Origin: a virus
Taxonomy: Duplodnaviria > Caudoviricetes
Direction: 5' to 3' (one strand)
Length of the DNA: 39,307 bases
IMG/VR virus record: IMGVR_UViG_3300020712_000011
Span: 1 to 39,307 of that record
Part shown: positions 8,105-26,833 of the stretch, one piece after another
How positions within the stretch are numbered: position 1 is the stretch's first letter
Layout: each line of letters opens with the position of its first letter
The notes under the pieces: generated by a model
Told to the model about the DNA's origin: nothing
Databases searched by the model: none
Seen by the model: only the letters and a program-made list of their open reading frames with translations
Position numbers and translations under genes: made by a program

Positions 8105-8167
8105 CTAGACTTTATAGTCAATTTTGTCTAATCTTTACGGTTAGACTTTTTTCCGTTTTTTGTCTAA
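8105..8167. promoter_or_regulatory. Two tandem TAGAC-N15-GTCTAA inverted-repeat sites
   Basis: 8105-8131 and 8141-8167; same 15-nt spacer as the copies at 11281 and 15389. Confidence 0.7.
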
Positions 8168-8195
8168 GTCTCTTCTATCTCTTTACGGTTAGGGC

Positions 8196-8492
8196 TTACT
8201 CTTCACTCTCCCATCCATGCCGGTCCGGATCGCATAAGTGCCCGCATGAATAGCAGACATAAGCGCCGCTAAGCCATGTTCGATAACCGAATCGACCTAG
8301 TGAGTCAATAAATAACCCGGACTCGTTAACGCTTACGCGCTCGCCGTTACCGGCATATCTCGGACAGTCGAAATAAGGGAGATCTTCCGAGTCTCCCGGA
8401 TCTTCGCATAGGCAGAAGCCGAAGCGCTGGAGCTGCGTCGAGTGAGTAAGCTGCGCTAGGTCGCTCCATGAGATCGAGTCGGCGGCGATCAT
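8196..8492 (-). CDS. Cys-rich hypothetical early protein
   Basis: Coupled to the upstream gene; CxC and CxxC motifs. Confidence 0.6.
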   Translation of the reverse strand: MIAADSISWSDLAQLTHSTQLQRFGFCLCEDPGDSEDLPYFDCPRYAGNGERVSVNESGLFIDSLGRFGYRTWLSGAYVCYSCGHLCDPDRHGWESEE

Positions 8493-9052
8493 GCGTTAAC
8501 TCCGGCGGGATGATCGACTTTCCCGGAAAGTAGGAAAATATCCCCGGCTTCTGCGATATCTTCTCTTGCGTGAGCTTCGCTAGTCCACTCTTCGATCCAC
8601 TTATAACCGTACTTTTCTAAATTCCGGCAGATCTTAAGATAGGACTCGCGAAATTCTTCGATCCCGTCGCTTATCTCTTCTCCTTCCGCGTCGAATAATT
8701 CCGGGGTAACCGTGTAACCGTGCGAGTAGTGATTAGAATTCCGCTTAAATTCTGCGTAAATAGCCGAATCGGGCCAGGATAAGCCGGGGGCCGTCTCTTT
8801 ATTTACTCGACCGGAGAAGCTAACCCCGTCTCCCTGGCTATAGCTTAGGGAATAAGAGATCTTAAGATCATCCGCGCCAGGTAGATCATAAGCGCCGGTA
8901 ATCTCGCGGGCTAATTCTTCGAGCATAGACTCTTCGAGAAGATAGTCCGGGATCTCCATATGGAGAGAATATCGCCATGCTTCTAGGGCCTTTTCTTGCG
9001 CTTCGGGAGATAATTCCTCGAAGCTATAGCGGGTTATTGTGTACTCTTTCAC
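8489..9052 (-). CDS. Acidic early protein (YSFEELSPEAQEKA family), possible anti-defence/DNA mimic
   Basis: Very Glu/Asp-rich; GAAAGG RBS; function inferred from context only. Confidence 0.55.
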   Translation of the reverse strand: MKEYTITRYSFEELSPEAQEKALEAWRYSLHMEIPDYLLEESMLEELAREITGAYDLPGADDLKISYSLSYSQGDGVSFSGRVNKETAPGLSWPDSAIYAEFKRNSNHYSHGYTVTPELFDAEGEEISDGIEEFRESYLKICRNLEKYGYKWIEEWTSEAHAREDIAEAGDIFLLSGKVDHPAGVNA

Positions 9053-9093
9053 TTTATTTTCCTTTCACTCACTCATAAGCCGATCCTATGAGC

Positions 9094-9143
9094 TAGTGCG
9101 CGGCGAGAGGATCGCACTCTCGTGTAGGCCACTAGGCCCGCGC
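9094..9143 (-). ncRNA. tRNA-like intergenic element 1 (no anticodon arm)
   Basis: GCGCGG-GCCTAGTGGCCTACA-CGAGAG-TGCGATC-CTCTCG-CCGCGC-ACTA. Confidence 0.6.
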
Positions 9144-9150
9144 TGCCGGG

Positions 9151-9792
9151 TTATTTATTGCGTACCGGCATAAGTAGGCCGCGCCACTTAATAGAGTCGT
9201 GAGGGATCTCGACCGTTACCGGCTTATTTTCGCCGTGAAAGGTAAATTTATTCATCCCGGCTTTATTCGATCCCGGCACTTTCGCGAAGCTCGCTAGGAA
9301 TTCCGCGTTACATGAAAACTCCGAGAGTGCTATCTTCTCGCTATCCCATAGCTTTTCGAGAGTCTCGGGACCAGGAAAATTAGCGCCTGGGAGATAGATC
9401 GAGAAACTATCCCCGGGAGAATCAAGAGAAGCCGCGCTAATTGATACGGTAAGAATATCCCCGGCCTTAAATAGATTAACCGTTACCGACTTAAAAGTGC
9501 GCTTAGGTAGGGCCTTAAGCGCTGCGAGGATCTTCTTAATGCTCGCTAGTGGGATCGTAAGCGCTTCGAGATCTCCAGACTCAAGAGAAGTCTCTCCGAT
9601 AATAGCTCGAAATCTATCGGTAGCGGTTACTCTTAACTCTCCATCGATTACTCGAATATTTACGCCGTTAAGCGCGGTTAGATCGTCTTTCGGATGAGCT
9701 GCGACCGAAGCGCCGGCGAGTAGATCGCGAAATAGATCCGCGCTAATTGTTACTCCGGTATTTACTTTATTTTCTGCGAGTGTGCTATTCAT
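9151..9792 (-). CDS. DNA polymerase III beta-clamp-like protein (short)
   Basis: LNGV.I......L.VTATDRFR, FP, FNxxFL-like and GLLMPVR end motifs; 213 aa. Confidence 0.7.
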   Translation of the reverse strand: MNSTLAENKVNTGVTISADLFRDLLAGASVAAHPKDDLTALNGVNIRVIDGELRVTATDRFRAIIGETSLESGDLEALTIPLASIKKILAALKALPKRTFKSVTVNLFKAGDILTVSISAASLDSPGDSFSIYLPGANFPGPETLEKLWDSEKIALSEFSCNAEFLASFAKVPGSNKAGMNKFTFHGENKPVTVEIPHDSIKWRGLLMPVRNK

Positions 9793-9834
9793 CGTTTAAC
9801 CTTTCGATAATCTCCCGGGCCGATCCCTAGGAGA

Positions 9835-9881
9835 TAGTGCGCGGGGAGTGAGTTGAACACTCCCGAGCCGCCGGGCCGCGC
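9835..9881 (-). ncRNA. tRNA-like intergenic element 2 (no anticodon arm)
   Basis: GCGCGG-CCCGGCGGCTCG-GGAGTG-TTCAACT-CACTCC-CCGCGC-ACTA. Confidence 0.6.
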
Positions 9882-9888
9882 TGCTTAC

Positions 9889-10050
9889 TTAATGGGGAAA
9901 TAGAAGATCCTTGCAGAATTGCGACATATTCTCGACCGGGACTCGACATCCTTTCGGAGTTGTGTAGTAATTAAGTAAATAAATAACCCCGAGAATAAGC
10001 GCGGCGATAAGTAAGGCCCGGAGTCGCTTCCCGCGTCGAGTGAGCTTCAC
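9889..10050 (-). CDS. Small membrane protein (53 aa, not in ORF track)
   Basis: MKLTRRGKRLRALLIAALILGVIYLL... with one TM helix. Confidence 0.65.
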   Translation of the reverse strand: MKLTRRGKRLRALLIAALILGVIYLLNYYTTPKGCRVPVENMSQFCKDLLFPH

Positions 10051-10623
10051 TTAGTAACTCCGAAAATAATGGCCCGATACTTCGAAAATATCGTGCATAA
10101 GATCGCGAGCGAAAGACTCATAATCGAAGTAACGCGCTAAGAACTCCGGCGCATCGTCTAGCAGCCCCGTGCCGGAGATATATTCCTCCGCCATATCTTG
10201 ATCGCTCGAATATTCTCCAATATAACTATCGCGCATAGTCTCGAGATCGAATTCCATCCCGTTACTTAGCCAGGCGATAACTATTTCGCGCTCATCGTCT
10301 CTAATTTCTGCGAGCTGCCGCGCTGCTTCTGCTGCTTCGCTAGTGTTGCACTCTCCGGTAATAAGTCCGAGAAAATTCTCATGATCCATCACCGAGAATT
10401 CATCGCCGAAGCACTTCACGCAGCGATAAGCCGAATACTCTCCGACCGTTTCCATAGTTGCAATGCCGGCAGACTCGAGATCGTCGCACTCGACTCCATC
10501 GATCCACTTACCGAATAATCTCCCGGAGTTGTAACACGATAAACAGCCTACCCATGCGCGGGGAGTGAAGCTATCTTCATCAGTACCAATTGCAAGAATT
10601 ACGCCGGTATCTAGTGCGCTCAT
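10051..10623 (-). CDS. ardA: Antirestriction protein ArdA
   Basis: WVGCL.CYN.G.L.G.W N-terminus, YIGEY and YFDYESFARDL C-terminus; highly acidic. Confidence 0.88.
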   Translation of the reverse strand: MSALDTGVILAIGTDEDSFTPRAWVGCLSCYNSGRLFGKWIDGVECDDLESAGIATMETVGEYSAYRCVKCFGDEFSVMDHENFLGLITGECNTSEAAEAARQLAEIRDDEREIVIAWLSNGMEFDLETMRDSYIGEYSSDQDMAEEYISGTGLLDDAPEFLARYFDYESFARDLMHDIFEVSGHYFRSY

Positions 10624-10624
10624 A

Positions 10625-10774
10625 TTATGCGCCTACCTTTACGCCGCCGAATTTAATCGCCATACACTCCGGATAAGTACCGGTAAAGATTATACGGTAA
10701 GTATTTCGCGCCACTTCATCGCCGCAGACGATAATATTTCCGAATTTATTCGCTTGTGCCGTGTAGATCTTCAT
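10625..10774 (-). CDS. Small hypothetical protein (49 aa), first gene of the early operon
   Basis: MKIYTAQANKFGNIIVCG...; GAAAGG RBS. Confidence 0.6.
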   Translation of the reverse strand: MKIYTAQANKFGNIIVCGDEVARNTYRIIFTGTYPECMAIKFGGVKVGA

Positions 10775-10825
10775 AGCTTAACCTTTCGATAGTCGGCTAG
10801 GACTCTCCCTAGCTCGTTAGGCATC

Positions 10826-10855
10826 ATTCTAGGGCCATAGATTACGGATGCGCAA
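10826..10855 (-). promoter_or_regulatory. Leftward early promoter
   Basis: TTGCGC-18-TAGAAT with an AGATTACG box (10839-10846) in the spacer; leader hairpin and RBS follow. Confidence 0.65.
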
Positions 10856-11085
10856 GTATCACGGGGATAAATTCGCCGGTAATCGGCCCGGGATTAGATC
10901 AAAATAGCCCGCATTGGGTAGATATTCGCCAGAGAATGGTGTCTGTATCTGGTGTCAAGGTTTCCCCTAATCGGTGGCTTAAGCTGCTATCTGGTATCGG
11001 CGGGCAGGATTGGAGGGTTCACGCTCAATCGGGGGATAATTGGAGGGTTTGGGGGATTACTCAATTTTCCACCCAATCCCGACAT

Positions 11086-11280: not shown

Positions 11281-11307
11281 TTAGACTATTCTGCTTACTT
11301 TGTCTAA
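11281..11307. promoter_or_regulatory. TTAGAC-N15-GTCTAA site
   Basis: Exact half-sites with a 15-nt spacer. Confidence 0.65.
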
Positions 11308-12233: not shown

Positions 12234-12452
12234 TTGGAAGAACATACTCATAAGTATTTTGTTATCTGCCCTAGATGTAAGTGGGAGTCTGAGCATTATC
12301 CGTGTCCAGATGGAGTAATGATTGCTTTGGGGATTTGGACAAAGGACTTAGTAGATCATGTCAAAACAAAACATAGAATTTATTATGCCTATTCAGGTAT
12401 AAAGAAAACCAGCATCAAAAGTAAGGTACTGTGTAGTTGTGACAGGAGCTAA
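12234..12452 (+). CDS. Small Zn-finger hypothetical protein
   Basis: CxxC...H...H; overlaps the terminase start. Confidence 0.5.
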   Translation: MEEHTHKYFVICPRCKWESEHYPCPDGVMIALGIWTKDLVDHVKTKHRIYYAYSGIKKTSIKSKVLCSCDRS

Positions 12453-15369
12453 TCTACGCGTTGATGATGAGCGTTGGCGTAAATATGCCAAAGCAATCAA
12501 AGATGGACATTCCCAGCGTACTGCCGCAAAGATGGCTGGCATTAGCCACTCAACAGTTATGCGCCAGTATCGCACTCCCACATCTCGCCTTAACCGCGTT
12601 CTTGGAGAAGCAGGGTTTGAATCTGCCGGCGTTATCAACATTGAAAAGATTAAAGGCGATGCCGAAAAAGCAATCAATGACTTCGGGTATTTTCGCCAAC
12701 GCTACTTTGCTCGCTCGACTTCTCCTTGGGCTGAGGAAGCAGCGTATAAAGTTCTTGCTTTAGCCGAAAGCCCTAACAAGGAATATGTAGTTGTAAACTG
12801 CCCACCTGGTGTTGGTAAAGCCCTAGCATTAGATACTCCTATTGCTACACCTCAAGGATGGACAACGCAAGGTGCGCTTAAAATTGGAGATGAACTTTTT
12901 GACGAGAACGGTCAAATCTGTCGAGTCACAGGGAAATCTGAAATCTTTACAGATAGAGATTGCTATCAAGTAAAAACGGATGATGGCTGTAGCGTAATCG
13001 CTGATGCAGAACATGAGTGGTCTGTGCGATTAGATGGTCATGGGCAATATAACTCATTTTCAATTCCTTATTACAAAGGCAAGACTGGGCCTAAACCATC
13101 TAAGGATGGTCGCCAAATTCACACGACAAAATCTCTCGCCAAATCACGAAGTAAGCGTCCTCAATTACAGGTAGCAAAGGCACTTAACTTACCTGATGTT
13201 ATCCTTCCCTTAGACCCTTATGTTTTAGGAGCATGGCTTGGGGATGGACATGCTAACGGCGCACGCATAACAACACACCCAGATGATACGGAGATTTTAG
13301 ACCGTATTTCTTCTGCTGGATATACCGTTGAGAAGCAAGGTTATATGCTCTACTCAATTACAGGTTCCAAGAAGTATGCGAAAGATAGTTTGACAGCGCA
13401 TCTTCGCCAAGCTGGGGTCTATGGAAATAAACATATTCCTCTTGAGTATTTCAGAGCATCGCACCGCCAGCGACTCGCACTACTTCAAGGGTTAATAGAT
13501 ACAGATGGAAGCGTTAGCGAAGGCGGCTTAATCGAGTTCTGTAATACAAACCCAAATTTAGCATTTGGAGTTCAAGAACTTGTCCACTCGTTAGGCGCAA
13601 AGGCAAGCATCTCCGAGTCGCGTGCTATGTTAAATGGTAAAGATTGTGGTCCACGGTGGAGAGTTACCTTCTACCTTAAGGACGGAGCGTATCTATTAAG
13701 AAAGCGGATACGCACTCGTAATGGCGTTCGCACTCCTAGTCGTTATCTCACCGTTACTAAGGTTGATTCAGTTCCTACTCAATGTATCCAAGTAGATTCA
13801 CCCTCCCACCTTTACCTCGCAGGTAGAGGGTTAATGGTTACTCATAATTCCACATTCTTTACCCATGATCTTCCAGTATGGCTTGCCGTTCGCAATCGCG
13901 CTCGCCGTACCATGATTGGTTCTCGTACCGCAGGACAGGCAACCAAATACACAGGTCGTATTCGCCGTACCTTTGAACGCGTAACCCCAGTCAAAGCCGA
14001 CCCAGTTCTATTGGAAAAGGGTTTAGCTAAAGATGCTGAATCCACGCTCATTACAGACTTCGGTAGGTTCAAACCTTCCAACTCTGATCTTTGGCGGCTA
14101 GATGAATTTATCTTGGCTCAAGATGGTGGAGTTGCGGTAGATGATAAAGAACCAAACTTTGTTGCCTACGGAATGGATTCTGGATTTTTGGGTGGTCGCT
14201 TTGATACCGTTATCTGGGATGACCTTGTAGATAAGACAAATATCCGCACAGTTGAAGCCCGCGAGAATTTGATTAACTGGTGGGAAACTGAAGCTGAAAC
14301 TCGTCTTGACCCTGGCGGTCTTTTGATTTTACAAGGGCAGAGAATGTCGCCCGATGACCTTTACCGATACGCGCTTAATCTCGTAGATTGGTCAGAAGAA
14401 TTTGAAGAAGAACCAGAGAAGGCTCCCAAGAAGTATCACCACATTATTTACAAAGCGCACTATGATGACTTATGTGAAGCAGAAAATAACGGGGGTGTTC
14501 ATCATGGTAACTACCCTGATGGGTGTTTGCTGGATAGTTACCGTTTGCCCTGGCGTGAATTATCACGGGTAAGAAAAAGCAAACTCGATAAGTTCCTTAC
14601 CCTTTATCAGCAAGAAGATGTAGATGCCGAAGCCTCTCTTATTCAGCAAGCATGGATTGACGGGGGCATTGACAAAGACGGGGTTCAATCTCAGGGATGC
14701 TGGGATGCCACCAGAAACATCGGCAATTGGCCTAAAGGAGTTATGGGGTATTCGGTTGTAACCGCCGACCCATCTCCGACAAAATATTGGGCAGTTCAAT
14801 GGTGGGCTTATTCCCCTGATACCAAAATGCAACACCTTGTTGATTTAGCCCGAACCCCTATGGAAGCACCTGACTTCCTTGATTACAACCAAGACACCCG
14901 AACCTATACGGGACTTTTAGAAGAATGGTGGGTTCGTTCTAACGATCAAGGTCACCCTTTTACCTACCTCATAGTGGAGGCAAACGCGGCTCAACGGTTC
15001 ATGTTGCAATATGACCATTTTAAGCGGTGGTCTGCTATTCGTAATGTGAACCTAGTTCCCCATCAAACAAACCGGAACAAATCTGATGAATCGTACGGAG
15101 TTCAGACATTAGCCCCGCACTACAAAGCTGGTCGCGTTCGCTTCCCTGGCGGTGGAACTTACCTTGAGTCTAAAGCCGTTATGAAGCCAATGGTTAAGGA
15201 ACTTATTCAATGGCCTGAAGGTTCTACCGATGACACGGTTATGGCGCATTGGTTCTTGATTTGGAACGCACCCCATCTCTTTGATGGAAATAATGGACAG
15301 GTCTATCAATTCTCCAATCGCCCAGCGTGGGTACAGAGAAATGCTAATCGCTTCAAGCGAGGCGTCTAA
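12439..15369 (+). CDS. terL: Terminase large subunit with N-terminal HTH and intein
   Basis: Walker A PPGVGK|ST split by the intein; Walker B VIWDD; nuclease ADP, VEAN and DDTVMA motifs. Confidence 0.93.
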   Translation: MTGANLRVDDERWRKYAKAIKDGHSQRTAAKMAGISHSTVMRQYRTPTSRLNRVLGEAGFESAGVINIEKIKGDAEKAINDFGYFRQRYFARSTSPWAEEAAYKVLALAESPNKEYVVVNCPPGVGKALALDTPIATPQGWTTQGALKIGDELFDENGQICRVTGKSEIFTDRDCYQVKTDDGCSVIADAEHEWSVRLDGHGQYNSFSIPYYKGKTGPKPSKDGRQIHTTKSLAKSRSKRPQLQVAKALNLPDVILPLDPYVLGAWLGDGHANGARITTHPDDTEILDRISSAGYTVEKQGYMLYSITGSKKYAKDSLTAHLRQAGVYGNKHIPLEYFRASHRQRLALLQGLIDTDGSVSEGGLIEFCNTNPNLAFGVQELVHSLGAKASISESRAMLNGKDCGPRWRVTFYLKDGAYLLRKRIRTRNGVRTPSRYLTVTKVDSVPTQCIQVDSPSHLYLAGRGLMVTHNSTFFTHDLPVWLAVRNRARRTMIGSRTAGQATKYTGRIRRTFERVTPVKADPVLLEKGLAKDAESTLITDFGRFKPSNSDLWRLDEFILAQDGGVAVDDKEPNFVAYGMDSGFLGGRFDTVIWDDLVDKTNIRTVEARENLINWWETEAETRLDPGGLLILQGQRMSPDDLYRYALNLVDWSEEFEEEPEKAPKKYHHIIYKAHYDDLCEAENNGGVHHGNYPDGCLLDSYRLPWRELSRVRKSKLDKFLTLYQQEDVDAEASLIQQAWIDGGIDKDGVQSQGCWDATRNIGNWPKGVMGYSVVTADPSPTKYWAVQWWAYSPDTKMQHLVDLARTPMEAPDFLDYNQDTRTYTGLLEEWWVRSNDQGHPFTYLIVEANAAQRFMLQYDHFKRWSAIRNVNLVPHQTNRNKSDESYGVQTLAPHYKAGRVRFPGGGTYLESKAVMKPMVKELIQWPEGSTDDTVMAHWFLIWNAPHLFDGNNGQVYQFSNRPAWVQRNANRFKRGV
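12820..13848 (+). mobile_element. Class 3 intein with LAGLIDADG homing endonuclease (343 aa)
   Basis: Starts ALALDTP and ends VTHN/S; W (AEHEW), C (TQCIQV) and T (THN) triad; LGAWLGDG and LQGLIDTDG motifs. Confidence 0.92.
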
Positions 15370-15388: not shown

Positions 15389-15415
15389 TTAGACAGTTAT
15401 TTCTCCATTGTCTAA
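15389..15415. promoter_or_regulatory. TTAGAC-N15-GTCTAA site
   Basis: Intergenic, directly after the terminase. Confidence 0.65.
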
Positions 15416-26830: not shown

Positions 26831-26833
26831 GTT

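What the first reader, a model, noticed from the sequence alone, without database searches (positions are those of the whole stretch)
9094..9884. Two anticodon-less tRNA-like elements punctuating the early operon
Seen on the transcribed (-) strand at 9094-9143 and 9835-9881, each a few nt after a stop codon. Each has a 6-bp acceptor-like stem (GCGCGG/CCGCGC) stacked on a 6-bp arm, giving 12 bp as in the tRNA acceptor+T helix. The 7-nt loops are T-loop-like (TGCGATC, TTCAACT), the linker is short and GG-containing like a D-loop (CCTAGTGG), and the 3' end is ACTA, resembling ACCA. The arm sequences differ but both pair perfectly (CGAGAG/CTCTCG vs GGAGTG/CACTCC). Known: RNase P and RNase Z recognise the acceptor/T-arm elbow, and T7 early mRNA is cut by RNase III. 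Inference: these are tRNA-mimic mRNA processing signals, or released small RNAs that decoy tRNA-targeting defences. Standard tRNA finders would likely miss them.
Basis: partly seen in the sequence, partly recalled or inferred. Interest (0 to 1): 0.85.

Follow-up and report, generated by a model that had tools for sequence, protein, structure and literature searches.

The report
Mini-tRNA cut marks in phage mRNA
Two 45-letter RNA elements shaped like the elbow and acceptor end of a tRNA, but with no anticodon, sit just after stop codons in this phage's likely early gene block; they belong to a widespread phage family for which I found no description, and because related phages carry predicted self-cutting ribozymes in the same gaps, they most likely recruit host tRNA-trimming enzymes to cut the long message into protected single-gene pieces.

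Summary
Both elements are real (9098-9143, 9839-9881, minus strand). Each lies 7 nt after a stop codon and is followed by a hairpin and a ribosome-binding site. They belong to a phage family of mostly 41-50-nt anticodon-less mini-tRNAs: 128 distinct elements in 46 lineages, none in shuffled DNA, no Rfam family. Unconstrained T-stem positions pair in 25 of 28 viral hits against 3 of 119 cell-genome hits. T-loop G55 goes with AG and U55 with GG in the short D-like loop, the signature of a tRNA elbow. Cultured phages carry them (L5, SWU2, George; VanLee has 13). In close relatives the same gaps hold type II hammerhead ribozymes or long hairpins instead, which points to RNA cleavage as the job. 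In L5 a longer tRNA-like cousin ends about where the published stable Pleft RNA ends. Best reading (0.68): host tRNA-maturation nucleases cut, most likely on the 3' side, giving end-protected early mRNAs. No RNA data show cutting of these copies. ACTA is not a CCA mimic. The scan noted similar elements before on other phage DNA; I found no paper on the family.

The parts
9098..9143 (-). Mini-tRNA element A: 6-bp acceptor (9143-9138 with 9103-9098), 3-4-bp D-like hairpin with loop TAGT (9134-9131), 6-bp T stem, T-loop TGCGATC (9116-9110). Cannot form 7/5.
9094..9097 (-). Discriminator-like A and following CTA of element A; likely 3' cut site (inferred)
   Evidence: family flank statistics
9072..9092 (-). 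Hairpin after A, loop ATCGG closed by G-C, ahead of the ribosome-binding site of the 187-aa gene; predicted 5' end of the downstream mRNA
   Evidence: same loop with other stems in L286, L278, L345
9144..9150 (-). 7-nt spacer between the clamp-gene stop and element A
   Evidence: family peak at 6-9 nt
9179..9184 (-). Second GCGCGG in the last codons of the clamp-like gene, predicted to compete with A's 5' acceptor strand in ribosome-free RNA
9839..9881 (-). Mini-tRNA element B: 6/6 or 5/7 helix, D-like hairpin with loop CGGC (9873-9870), T-loop TTCAACT (9857-9851)
9835..9838 (-). Discriminator-like A and following CTA of element B
9811..9834 (-). Hairpin after B, loop ATCGG closed by G-C, ahead of the ribosome-binding site of the clamp-like gene
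9882..9888 (-). 7-nt spacer between the 53-aa gene stop and element B
10051..10623 (-). ArdA anti-restriction gene (190 aa)
   Evidence: PF07275 E 5e-22; phrog_2059
9889..10050 (-). 53-aa gene of unknown function, conserved in relatives; precedes B
9151..9792 (-). Sliding-clamp-like gene (213 aa) between B and A
   Evidence: PF02767 E 8e-8
8489..9052 (-). 187-aa gene of unknown function after A
   Evidence: phrog_5162
8190..10930 (-). Six-gene minus-strand block (49, 190, 53, 213, 187, 98 aa) with about 10-fold depletion of a set of asymmetric 4-mers; inferred early, first-entering operon

Best explanation
The two elements are anticodon-less mini-tRNAs predicted to fold a tRNA elbow on a 12-bp acceptor/T helix, and they likely make the host's tRNA-maturation nucleases cut the phage's presumed early polycistronic mRNA, most likely just 3' of the discriminator, which would leave the upstream message ending in the compact tRNA-like fold and the downstream message starting with a hairpin. 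Shown: the sequences, their position 7 nt after stops, helix covariation in the family, the 18/55 covariation, and replacement by hammerheads or long hairpins in orthologous spacers. Inferred: transcription of the block as one early message; cleavage; the side of the cut; the enzyme (RNase Z, or RNase E followed by trimming; RNase P may also cut the 5' side and release a ~45-nt RNA); and the benefit (stable, independently translated mRNAs for early anti-defence and takeover genes). The 6-9-nt spacer is read as the room a terminating ribosome needs in order not to melt the fold (ribosome geometry recalled).
For: Helix covariation where the search did not require pairing: T stem 25 of 28 viral vs 3 of 119 cell-genome hits; acceptor and T stem both >=5 bp in 31 of 72 D-loop-anchored hits. 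Elbow covariation at lineage level, G55 with AG 11 of 12 and U55 with GG 25 of 34 (one further lineage had no readout), p 1e-4; loop-based p 0.008. A and B each show one of the two types. Orthologous spacers in 14 related blocks hold a mini-tRNA, a type II hammerhead or a 13-26-bp hairpin. L278 (imperfect mini-tRNA) and L291 (hammerhead, 36.8 bits, E 1e-5) share both flanking genes at 53% and 63% identity. The window's B slot holds a hammerhead in L291 (30.4 bits). A hammerhead cuts between its upstream and downstream hairpin, the place that matches the 3' side of the mini-tRNA. Hammerheads flank ardA and cleave in vivo in Agrobacterium (PMC3088659). In L5 a longer tRNA-like element ends at 51,134, next to the published end of the stable Pleft RNA (51,140-51,190; no terminator; PMC5712189). 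Spacer of 6-9 nt in 35 of 63 elements vs 18 of 190 real tRNAs. The 3' flank copies CCA-less tRNA genes (C74); the Latilactobacillus phage copies have U74. Hairpin-type acceptor+T substrates are cut by RNase P (PMC11143913), and t-elements direct such cuts in plant mitochondria (PMC1920247).
Against: No transcript ends are known for any mini element. All four hammerheads score below the Rfam cut-off of 37 bits. The L277 and L278 elements are imperfect. B. subtilis RNase Z works poorly with long 5' extensions and is inhibited by C74 (PMC1874595, PMC3161902), so a lone RNase Z cut is doubtful. A 7-bp acceptor was proposed as needed for RNase P cleavage of Y RNAs (PMC4201824), and 35 of 73 representatives cannot form 7/5. 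The L5 evidence is for a larger, 92-nt cousin, at RNA-seq resolution, and Kampy has an abundant right-end RNA with no element found. The downstream hairpin is not universal (z < -2 in 30 of 68, vs 18 of 68 upstream), and 10 of 68 lie inside a mechanical same-strand open frame. D29 lacks L5's mini element and still grows. A's acceptor is predicted to be displaced in naked RNA.
Confidence: 0.68

Rival explanations
1. The fold is only a passive barrier: decay nucleases chew back to it, so it stabilises upstream message segments without being a specific cleavage signal.
For: L5's stable RNA accumulates upstream of its tRNA-like element. Plain long hairpins fill many of the same slots. The spacer fits a fold that must survive on a translated message.
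Against: A barrier does not need a fixed 12-bp length, a T-loop, an elbow or R73-C74. Hammerheads in the same slots are cleavage devices.
Confidence: 0.12
2. RNase P and a 3' nuclease excise the element, CCA is added, and the released ~45-nt RNA is the functional product, a decoy for host defences that attack tRNA ends or elbows.
For: The 3' flank is that of CCA-less tRNA genes. VanLee has 13 copies. Neighbours include ArdA.
Against: A decoy would not be replaceable by a hammerhead or a hairpin. It would not need a fixed distance from stop codons. It has no anticodon loop for anticodon nucleases, and G3-U70 occurs in 1 of 128.
Confidence: 0.1
3. The element acts on uncut RNA, as an antitermination or pausing signal, or by recruiting ribosomes for the next gene through elbow contacts.
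For: Always in sense orientation between a stop and a ribosome-binding site in the cultured phages examined. The elbow is also read by the ribosome and T-box RNAs (PMC4919913).
Against: Does not explain the tRNA-like 3' flank or the exchange with hammerheads. Read-through recoding is excluded in the window by in-frame stops and a frame change.
Confidence: 0.07
4. They are DNA-level sites (attachment-site remnants, operators) or chance hairpins.
For: A T arm plus 3' acceptor strand is what tRNA-targeting attachment sites carry (recalled). Folding z-scores are modest.
Against: The 5' acceptor strand and the D-like loop co-vary with the 3' half; G-U pairs are tolerated on one strand; copies within one genome differ in sequence; 0 hits in shuffles.
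Confidence: 0.03

Closest known systems
t-elements of plant mitochondria (Forner et al. 2007, PMC1920247; passages read)
   Same: Non-coding tRNA-like folds with a T arm whose ends mark mRNA ends, attributed to RNase Z and RNase P.
   Different: Organelle, about 70 nt, degenerate cloverleaves. These are mostly 41-50 nt, have no anticodon arm at all, a 6/6 helix, and repeat between phage genes at a fixed distance from stop codons.
Type II hammerhead ribozymes between genes of phages and mobile elements (Perreault et al. 2011, PMC3088659; passages read; Rfam RF02276)
   Same: Same genomic role and, in this phage family, the same spacers; also found beside ardA.
   Different: Self-cleaving. The window's elements have no hammerhead core and would need host enzymes.
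RNase III processing stems of T7 early mRNA (recalled)
   Same: Host nuclease splits a polycistronic early message; 13-26-bp hairpins fill the same slots in relatives.
   Different: Recognised as a long duplex, not as a tRNA elbow.
Phage T4 rnaC (species 1) RNA
   Same: Phage non-coding RNA with a canonical T arm near its 3' end.
   Different: 139 nt with long extra arms, inside a tRNA gene cluster. It resembles the long cluster A element more than the minis.
Bacterial Y RNA YrlA (Chen et al. 2014, PMC4201824; passages read)
   Same: tRNA mimic with D, T and acceptor-like parts, also in phages.
   Different: Encoded beside Ro60 and carries a Ro-binding stem. No Ro60 hit among the 51 window ORFs scanned and no Rfam match.
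P1/P7 C4 RNA, tmRNA tRNA-like domain, plant-virus 3' tRNA-like structures (named in PMC11143913 and PMC4810235; passages read)
   Same: Non-tRNA substrates of tRNA-processing enzymes.
   Different: Larger, with antisense, tagging or aminoacylation roles; no G3-U70 or encoded CCA here.

Membership tests
tRNA gene (RF00005) | Anticodon arm | tested here: not met
   12-15-nt linker only; ARAGORN 0, Rfam none
tRNA gene (RF00005) | T arm with 7-nt T-loop and 12-bp acceptor+T stack | tested here: met
   6/6 rather than 7/5
tRNA gene (RF00005) | D-loop/T-loop elbow | tested here: met
   By covariation only: G55 with AG, U55 with GG; no structure
t-element (tRNA-like mRNA processing signal) | Non-canonical tRNA-like fold with a T arm next to an mRNA | tested here: met
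t-element (tRNA-like mRNA processing signal) | Element ends coincide with mapped transcript ends | not testable with these tools
   No RNA holder listed; only the larger L5 cousin has a published approximate end
Bacterial RNase P substrate | 12-bp ruler, elbow, G+1, R73-C74 | tested here: met
   Both window copies; features from PMC11143913; family counts
Bacterial RNase P substrate | 7-bp acceptor stem | tested here: not met
   Neither window copy; 35 of 73 representatives cannot form 7/5
Bacterial RNase P substrate | Cleavage at +1 | not testable with these tools
   Needs an assay
Y RNA (YrlA) | Ro60 gene nearby and Ro-binding stem | tested here: not met
   No Ro60 hit in 51 ORFs; no Rfam hit
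tmRNA tRNA-like domain | G3-U70 alanine identity pair, CCA and a tag reading frame | tested here: not met
   G3-C70 in both copies; G3-U70 in 1 of 128; ARAGORN found no tmRNA
Hammerhead ribozyme type II (RF02276) | Catalytic core around a three-way junction | tested here: not met
   None in the window; present in relatives L284 and L291
T4 rnaC-type stable RNA | About 140 nt, within a tRNA gene cluster | tested here: not met

The most novel reading that the evidence does not exclude
Phages of Actinobacteria and some Firmicutes use the smallest known tRNA elbow mimic as a general mRNA punctuation device, freely exchangeable with self-cleaving ribozymes and RNase III-type stems. A single host cut leaves early mRNAs ending in a tRNA-like, possibly CCA-tailed, 3' end that host tRNA-processing enzymes treat as finished tRNA. 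The same device, in a longer form, defines the unexplained 3' end of the very abundant Pleft RNA of mycobacteriophages L5 and D29, whose essential segment overlaps it.
Probability: 0.4. Interest if true: 0.9.

Novelty: new variant of a known kind. Interest (0 to 1): 0.78.

Why it matters
It would add a third, host-enzyme-driven way of cutting phage early messages, next to RNase III stems and ribozymes, and show the three swapping in the same spacers. It gives a natural minimal tRNA elbow, with a G18-U55 to A18-G55 switch, for structural work. It is testable at once because cultured phages on laboratory hosts carry it (L5, SWU2, George, VanLee, Dagobah). It also offers a concrete answer to a stated open question: how the 3' end of the abundant, stable Pleft RNA of cluster A mycobacteriophages is defined (PMC5712189). 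A 45-nt portable processing and stabilising cassette could be useful for gene expression in actinobacteria.

Tried and rejected
Rfam on the window and on 14 family loci gave only real tRNAs and one chance snoRNA hit. blastn of element A or of a gut-phage element against cultured phages gave chance hits only. The clamp protein found one relative; the terminase found 40 loci. The GTDB pattern scan covered 12 of 64 parts and was chance-like, with one convincing element in a Senegalimassilia contig. A second pattern was not found in 401 genomes drawn from the phylum of a Mycobacterium genome. My idea that C74 is a special block against RNase Z was dropped: real CCA-less tRNAs in the same loci have C74 too. 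The -1 argument against RNase P is weak: U-1 is not required, C-1 is common in mycobacteria, and my tRNA control mixes hosts. Stop-codon read-through was rejected. No promoter or terminator consensus explains the spacers. A MAFFT alignment misplaced the 5' acceptor strands, so no covariance model was built. The pair tables are paired by construction and are not used as evidence. The Dedrick supplement search showed only the head of the probe table, and figures are not held, so Northern bands could not be matched to the L5 element. The HFTV1 preprint concerns an ordinary viral tRNA.

Full report
OBSERVATION. The window is a near-complete 39.3-kb phage record with WhiB, terminase and head genes; an actinobacterial host is inferred from WhiB. 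A six-gene minus-strand block at 8196-10774 encodes ArdA and a clamp-like protein. A scan that asks only for a T-loop on a 12-bp split helix finds these two and nothing else in the window (60 shuffles: mean 0.03, maximum 1). ARAGORN and Rfam miss them. Each starts 7 nt after a stop codon and is followed, 1-4 nt after the discriminator-like A, by a hairpin with loop ATCGG and then a ribosome-binding site. Caveats: folding z-scores are -1.6 and -2.8, and in naked RNA a GCGCGG in the last codons of the clamp gene is predicted to displace A's 5' strand; a translating ribosome would cover it (inference).

A PHAGE FAMILY. An exact pattern fixing the acceptor and T-loop but not the T stem gave 67 viral loci and 28 distinct elements. 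All five free T-stem positions pair in 25 of 28. The near-identical pattern on cell genomes gave 3 of 119, as chance predicts (12 of 64 parts scanned). A pattern fixing only the two loops gave 72 distinct hits, 31 with both stems at least 5 bp and many different acceptor sequences; the other 41 include real tRNAs and chance matches. A strict scan of 414 sequences (2.0 Mb) gave 128 distinct elements and 0 in one shuffle, in 230 loci and 46 lineages. I dropped 53 hits (36 distinct) that overlapped relaxed ARAGORN calls; 10 of the 36 overlapped default calls and most of the rest look like family members. The 120 genome-contig loci were left out of that scan. A related pattern was not found in 401 genomes drawn from the phylum of a Mycobacterium genome. 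Cultured phages carry the element: blastn matched 132 records, mostly Mycobacterium, Arthrobacter and Gordonia phages (E up to 5). Of eight regions fetched, it was found in SWU2, L5, George, Mulciber, VanLee, Dagobah and a Latilactobacillus phage, and not in D29, where it is deleted. In VanLee 13 of 13 spacers of 50 nt or more in the run of small genes hold one (12 by scan, one by eye and by pattern). Of 107 flanking ORFs, 30 matched PHROGs: ArdA, clamp-like, amidoligase, superinfection exclusion, SSB and unknowns, with no head or tail family.

THE ELBOW IS LIKELY REAL. T-loop position 55 is U or G. Among 107 elements whose D-like loop was not in the search pattern, the first Y-R-G of the linker has A in 11 of 12 G55 lineages and G in 25 of 34 U55 lineages, with one lineage lacking a readout (Fisher p 1.2e-4). 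The same readout on the 3' flank shows no such split. By predicted hairpin loops, GG is present in 1 of 13 G55 and 10 of 18 U55 lineages (p 0.008). This is what a G18-U55 to A18-G55 swap with a kept G19-C56 would give (inference; numbering recalled). A has TAGT with G55; B has CGGC with U55. Exceptions exist, mostly longer loops holding both AG and GG.

ENDS AND SPACING. Where no pattern fixed the flank (33 representatives), position 73 is a purine in 28, 74 is C in 29, 75 is C in 3, and ACCA occurs once. Real CCA-less tRNAs in the fetched loci also have C74 (212 of 236), so the flank copies ordinary CCA-less tRNA genes and is not a CCA look-alike. All four Latilactobacillus phage copies have U74, a one-lineage hint of matching to the host. 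Position -1 is a pyrimidine in 23 of 73 elements and 245 of 329 tRNAs, but the control mixes hosts and U-1 is not required. The spacer to the upstream stop is 6-9 nt in 35 of 72 representatives (63 had a stop within 60 nt) and 5 or less in 3; real tRNAs give 18 of 190. A downstream hairpin is common, not universal (30 of 68 with z below -2, against 18 of 68 upstream), and 10 of 68 fall inside a mechanical open frame.

WHAT SITS IN THE SAME SLOT. Among 40 terminase-linked loci only 2 had strict elements. Reading the spacers of 14 blocks showed why. After the 53-aa gene family (slot B; family defined by single linkage) the window and L287 have a mini-tRNA, six relatives have 13-20-bp hairpins, L291 has a type II hammerhead (30.4 bits), and L286 has no gap. 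Between the clamp and 187-aa genes (slot A) L290 has a 17-bp hairpin. After another gene family, L286 has a perfect and L277 and L278 imperfect mini-tRNAs, while L284 and L291 have hammerheads (28.9 and 36.8 bits). L278 and L291 share both neighbours, at 53% and 63% identity. All four hammerheads have intact cores but score below Rfam's cut-off, and none is tested. Published hammerheads flank ardA and cleave in vivo (PMC3088659). Exchange with a self-cleaving RNA is the strongest argument that the slot is for cutting. A hammerhead cuts between its upstream and downstream hairpin, which maps to the 3' side of the mini-tRNA (inference).

A PUBLISHED RNA END. In L5 a 92-nt cloverleaf-like element with a 6-bp acceptor, a T arm and no normal anticodon loop spans 51,226-51,135, with the discriminator at 51,134. 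Homologues with covarying D and T stems were found in 11 of 14 regions scanned, 8 of which were picked as blast hits; Kampy, George and SWU2 lack it. Dedrick et al. report a very abundant, stable RNA of about 500 nt from Pleft whose 3' end (51,140-51,190) is unexplained and has no terminator, and a non-deletable segment 51,195-51,407 that overlaps the element's 5' half (PMC5712189). The match is within RNA-seq resolution and concerns a larger cousin, so it is supportive, not proof.

MECHANISM. Best reading (0.68): host tRNA-maturation nucleases read the elbow and helix and cut the early message, most likely just 3' of the discriminator, leaving both pieces with structured ends. The enzyme is open. 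B. subtilis RNase Z dislikes long leaders and C74 (PMC1874595, PMC3161902); mycobacterial RNase E cuts 5' of C (PMC10641625); RNase P cuts acceptor+T hairpins (PMC11143913) but may need 7 bp (PMC4201824). Rivals: passive barrier 0.12, released decoy 0.10, action on uncut RNA 0.07, DNA site or chance 0.03.

NOVELTY. It works like plant t-elements and like phage hammerhead or RNase III punctuation, but it is a member of none of the families tested. Seven paper searches returned no description of the family; the library lacks most subscription journals, and bioRxiv supplements were closed. Earlier notes of this scan report similar elements in other phages; none for this genome or sequence. Papers seen: passages of PMC4919913, PMC3161902, PMC11143913, PMC10673834, PMC1874595, PMC4626039, PMC1920247, PMC4201824, PMC10641625, PMC3088659, PMC4810235 and bioRxiv 2026.09.13.751334; passages and one section of bioRxiv 2025.11.21.689395; passages, two parts of the results text and a supplement search of PMC5712189. 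T7 RNase III processing and ribosome geometry are recalled. Verdict: real, new variant of a known kind, interest 0.78.

Noticed in passing
window 8190-10930: The block is about 10-fold depleted of a set of asymmetric 4-mers (13 vs 130 per kb) and enriched in palindromic ones such as CCGG and GATC; several relatives show the same bias, others none. It looks like avoidance of asymmetric restriction sites in first-entering DNA. ACCA and GTTC are among the depleted words, which may shape the elements' loops and flank.
   Followed up: partly
window 8105-8131, 8141-8167, 11281-11307, 15389-15415, weaker at 26833 and 33664: Operator-like inverted repeat TTAGAC-N15-GTCTA at six places; 11 strand matches against 0.28 expected.
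   Followed up: no
L291 4011-4069 and 3183-3242; L284 4336-4389 and 3531-3586; also L348, L412, L448: Type II hammerhead ribozymes directly after stop codons in early blocks, below the Rfam cut-off.
   Followed up: yes
L537 9136-9227 (L5 record 51,135-51,226) and homologues in L539, L541, L544-L551: [quoted passage not shown]
   Followed up: partly
window 9072-9092 and 9811-9834; L286, L278, L345: The downstream hairpin keeps the loop ATCGG closed by G-C while its stem changes, even after a long hairpin in place of a mini-tRNA. The reason is unexplained.
   Followed up: no
window 10770-10812: A 43-nt stretch at the head of the block resembles the hairpin and ribosome-binding region after element B (77%) but has no mini-tRNA before it.
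   Followed up: no
L537 8480-8800 (L5 between genes 89 and 88): Two short unannotated reading frames with ribosome-binding sites lie between stoperators upstream of L5's mini element.
   Followed up: no
L538 4648-6572 (Latilactobacillus phage TMW 1.46 P1): Four mini elements punctuate the lysogeny module around the superinfection-immunity and integrase genes, so the family is not limited to lytic early genes.
   Followed up: partly
L542 12854-14470 (Gordonia phage VanLee): An annotated Ro-like RNA-binding gene lies about 5 kb from the array of 13 mini elements.
   Followed up: no
window 12439-15369: The 976-aa terminase ORF matches two terminase profiles end to end, and no cultured phage covers 80% of it.
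   Followed up: no
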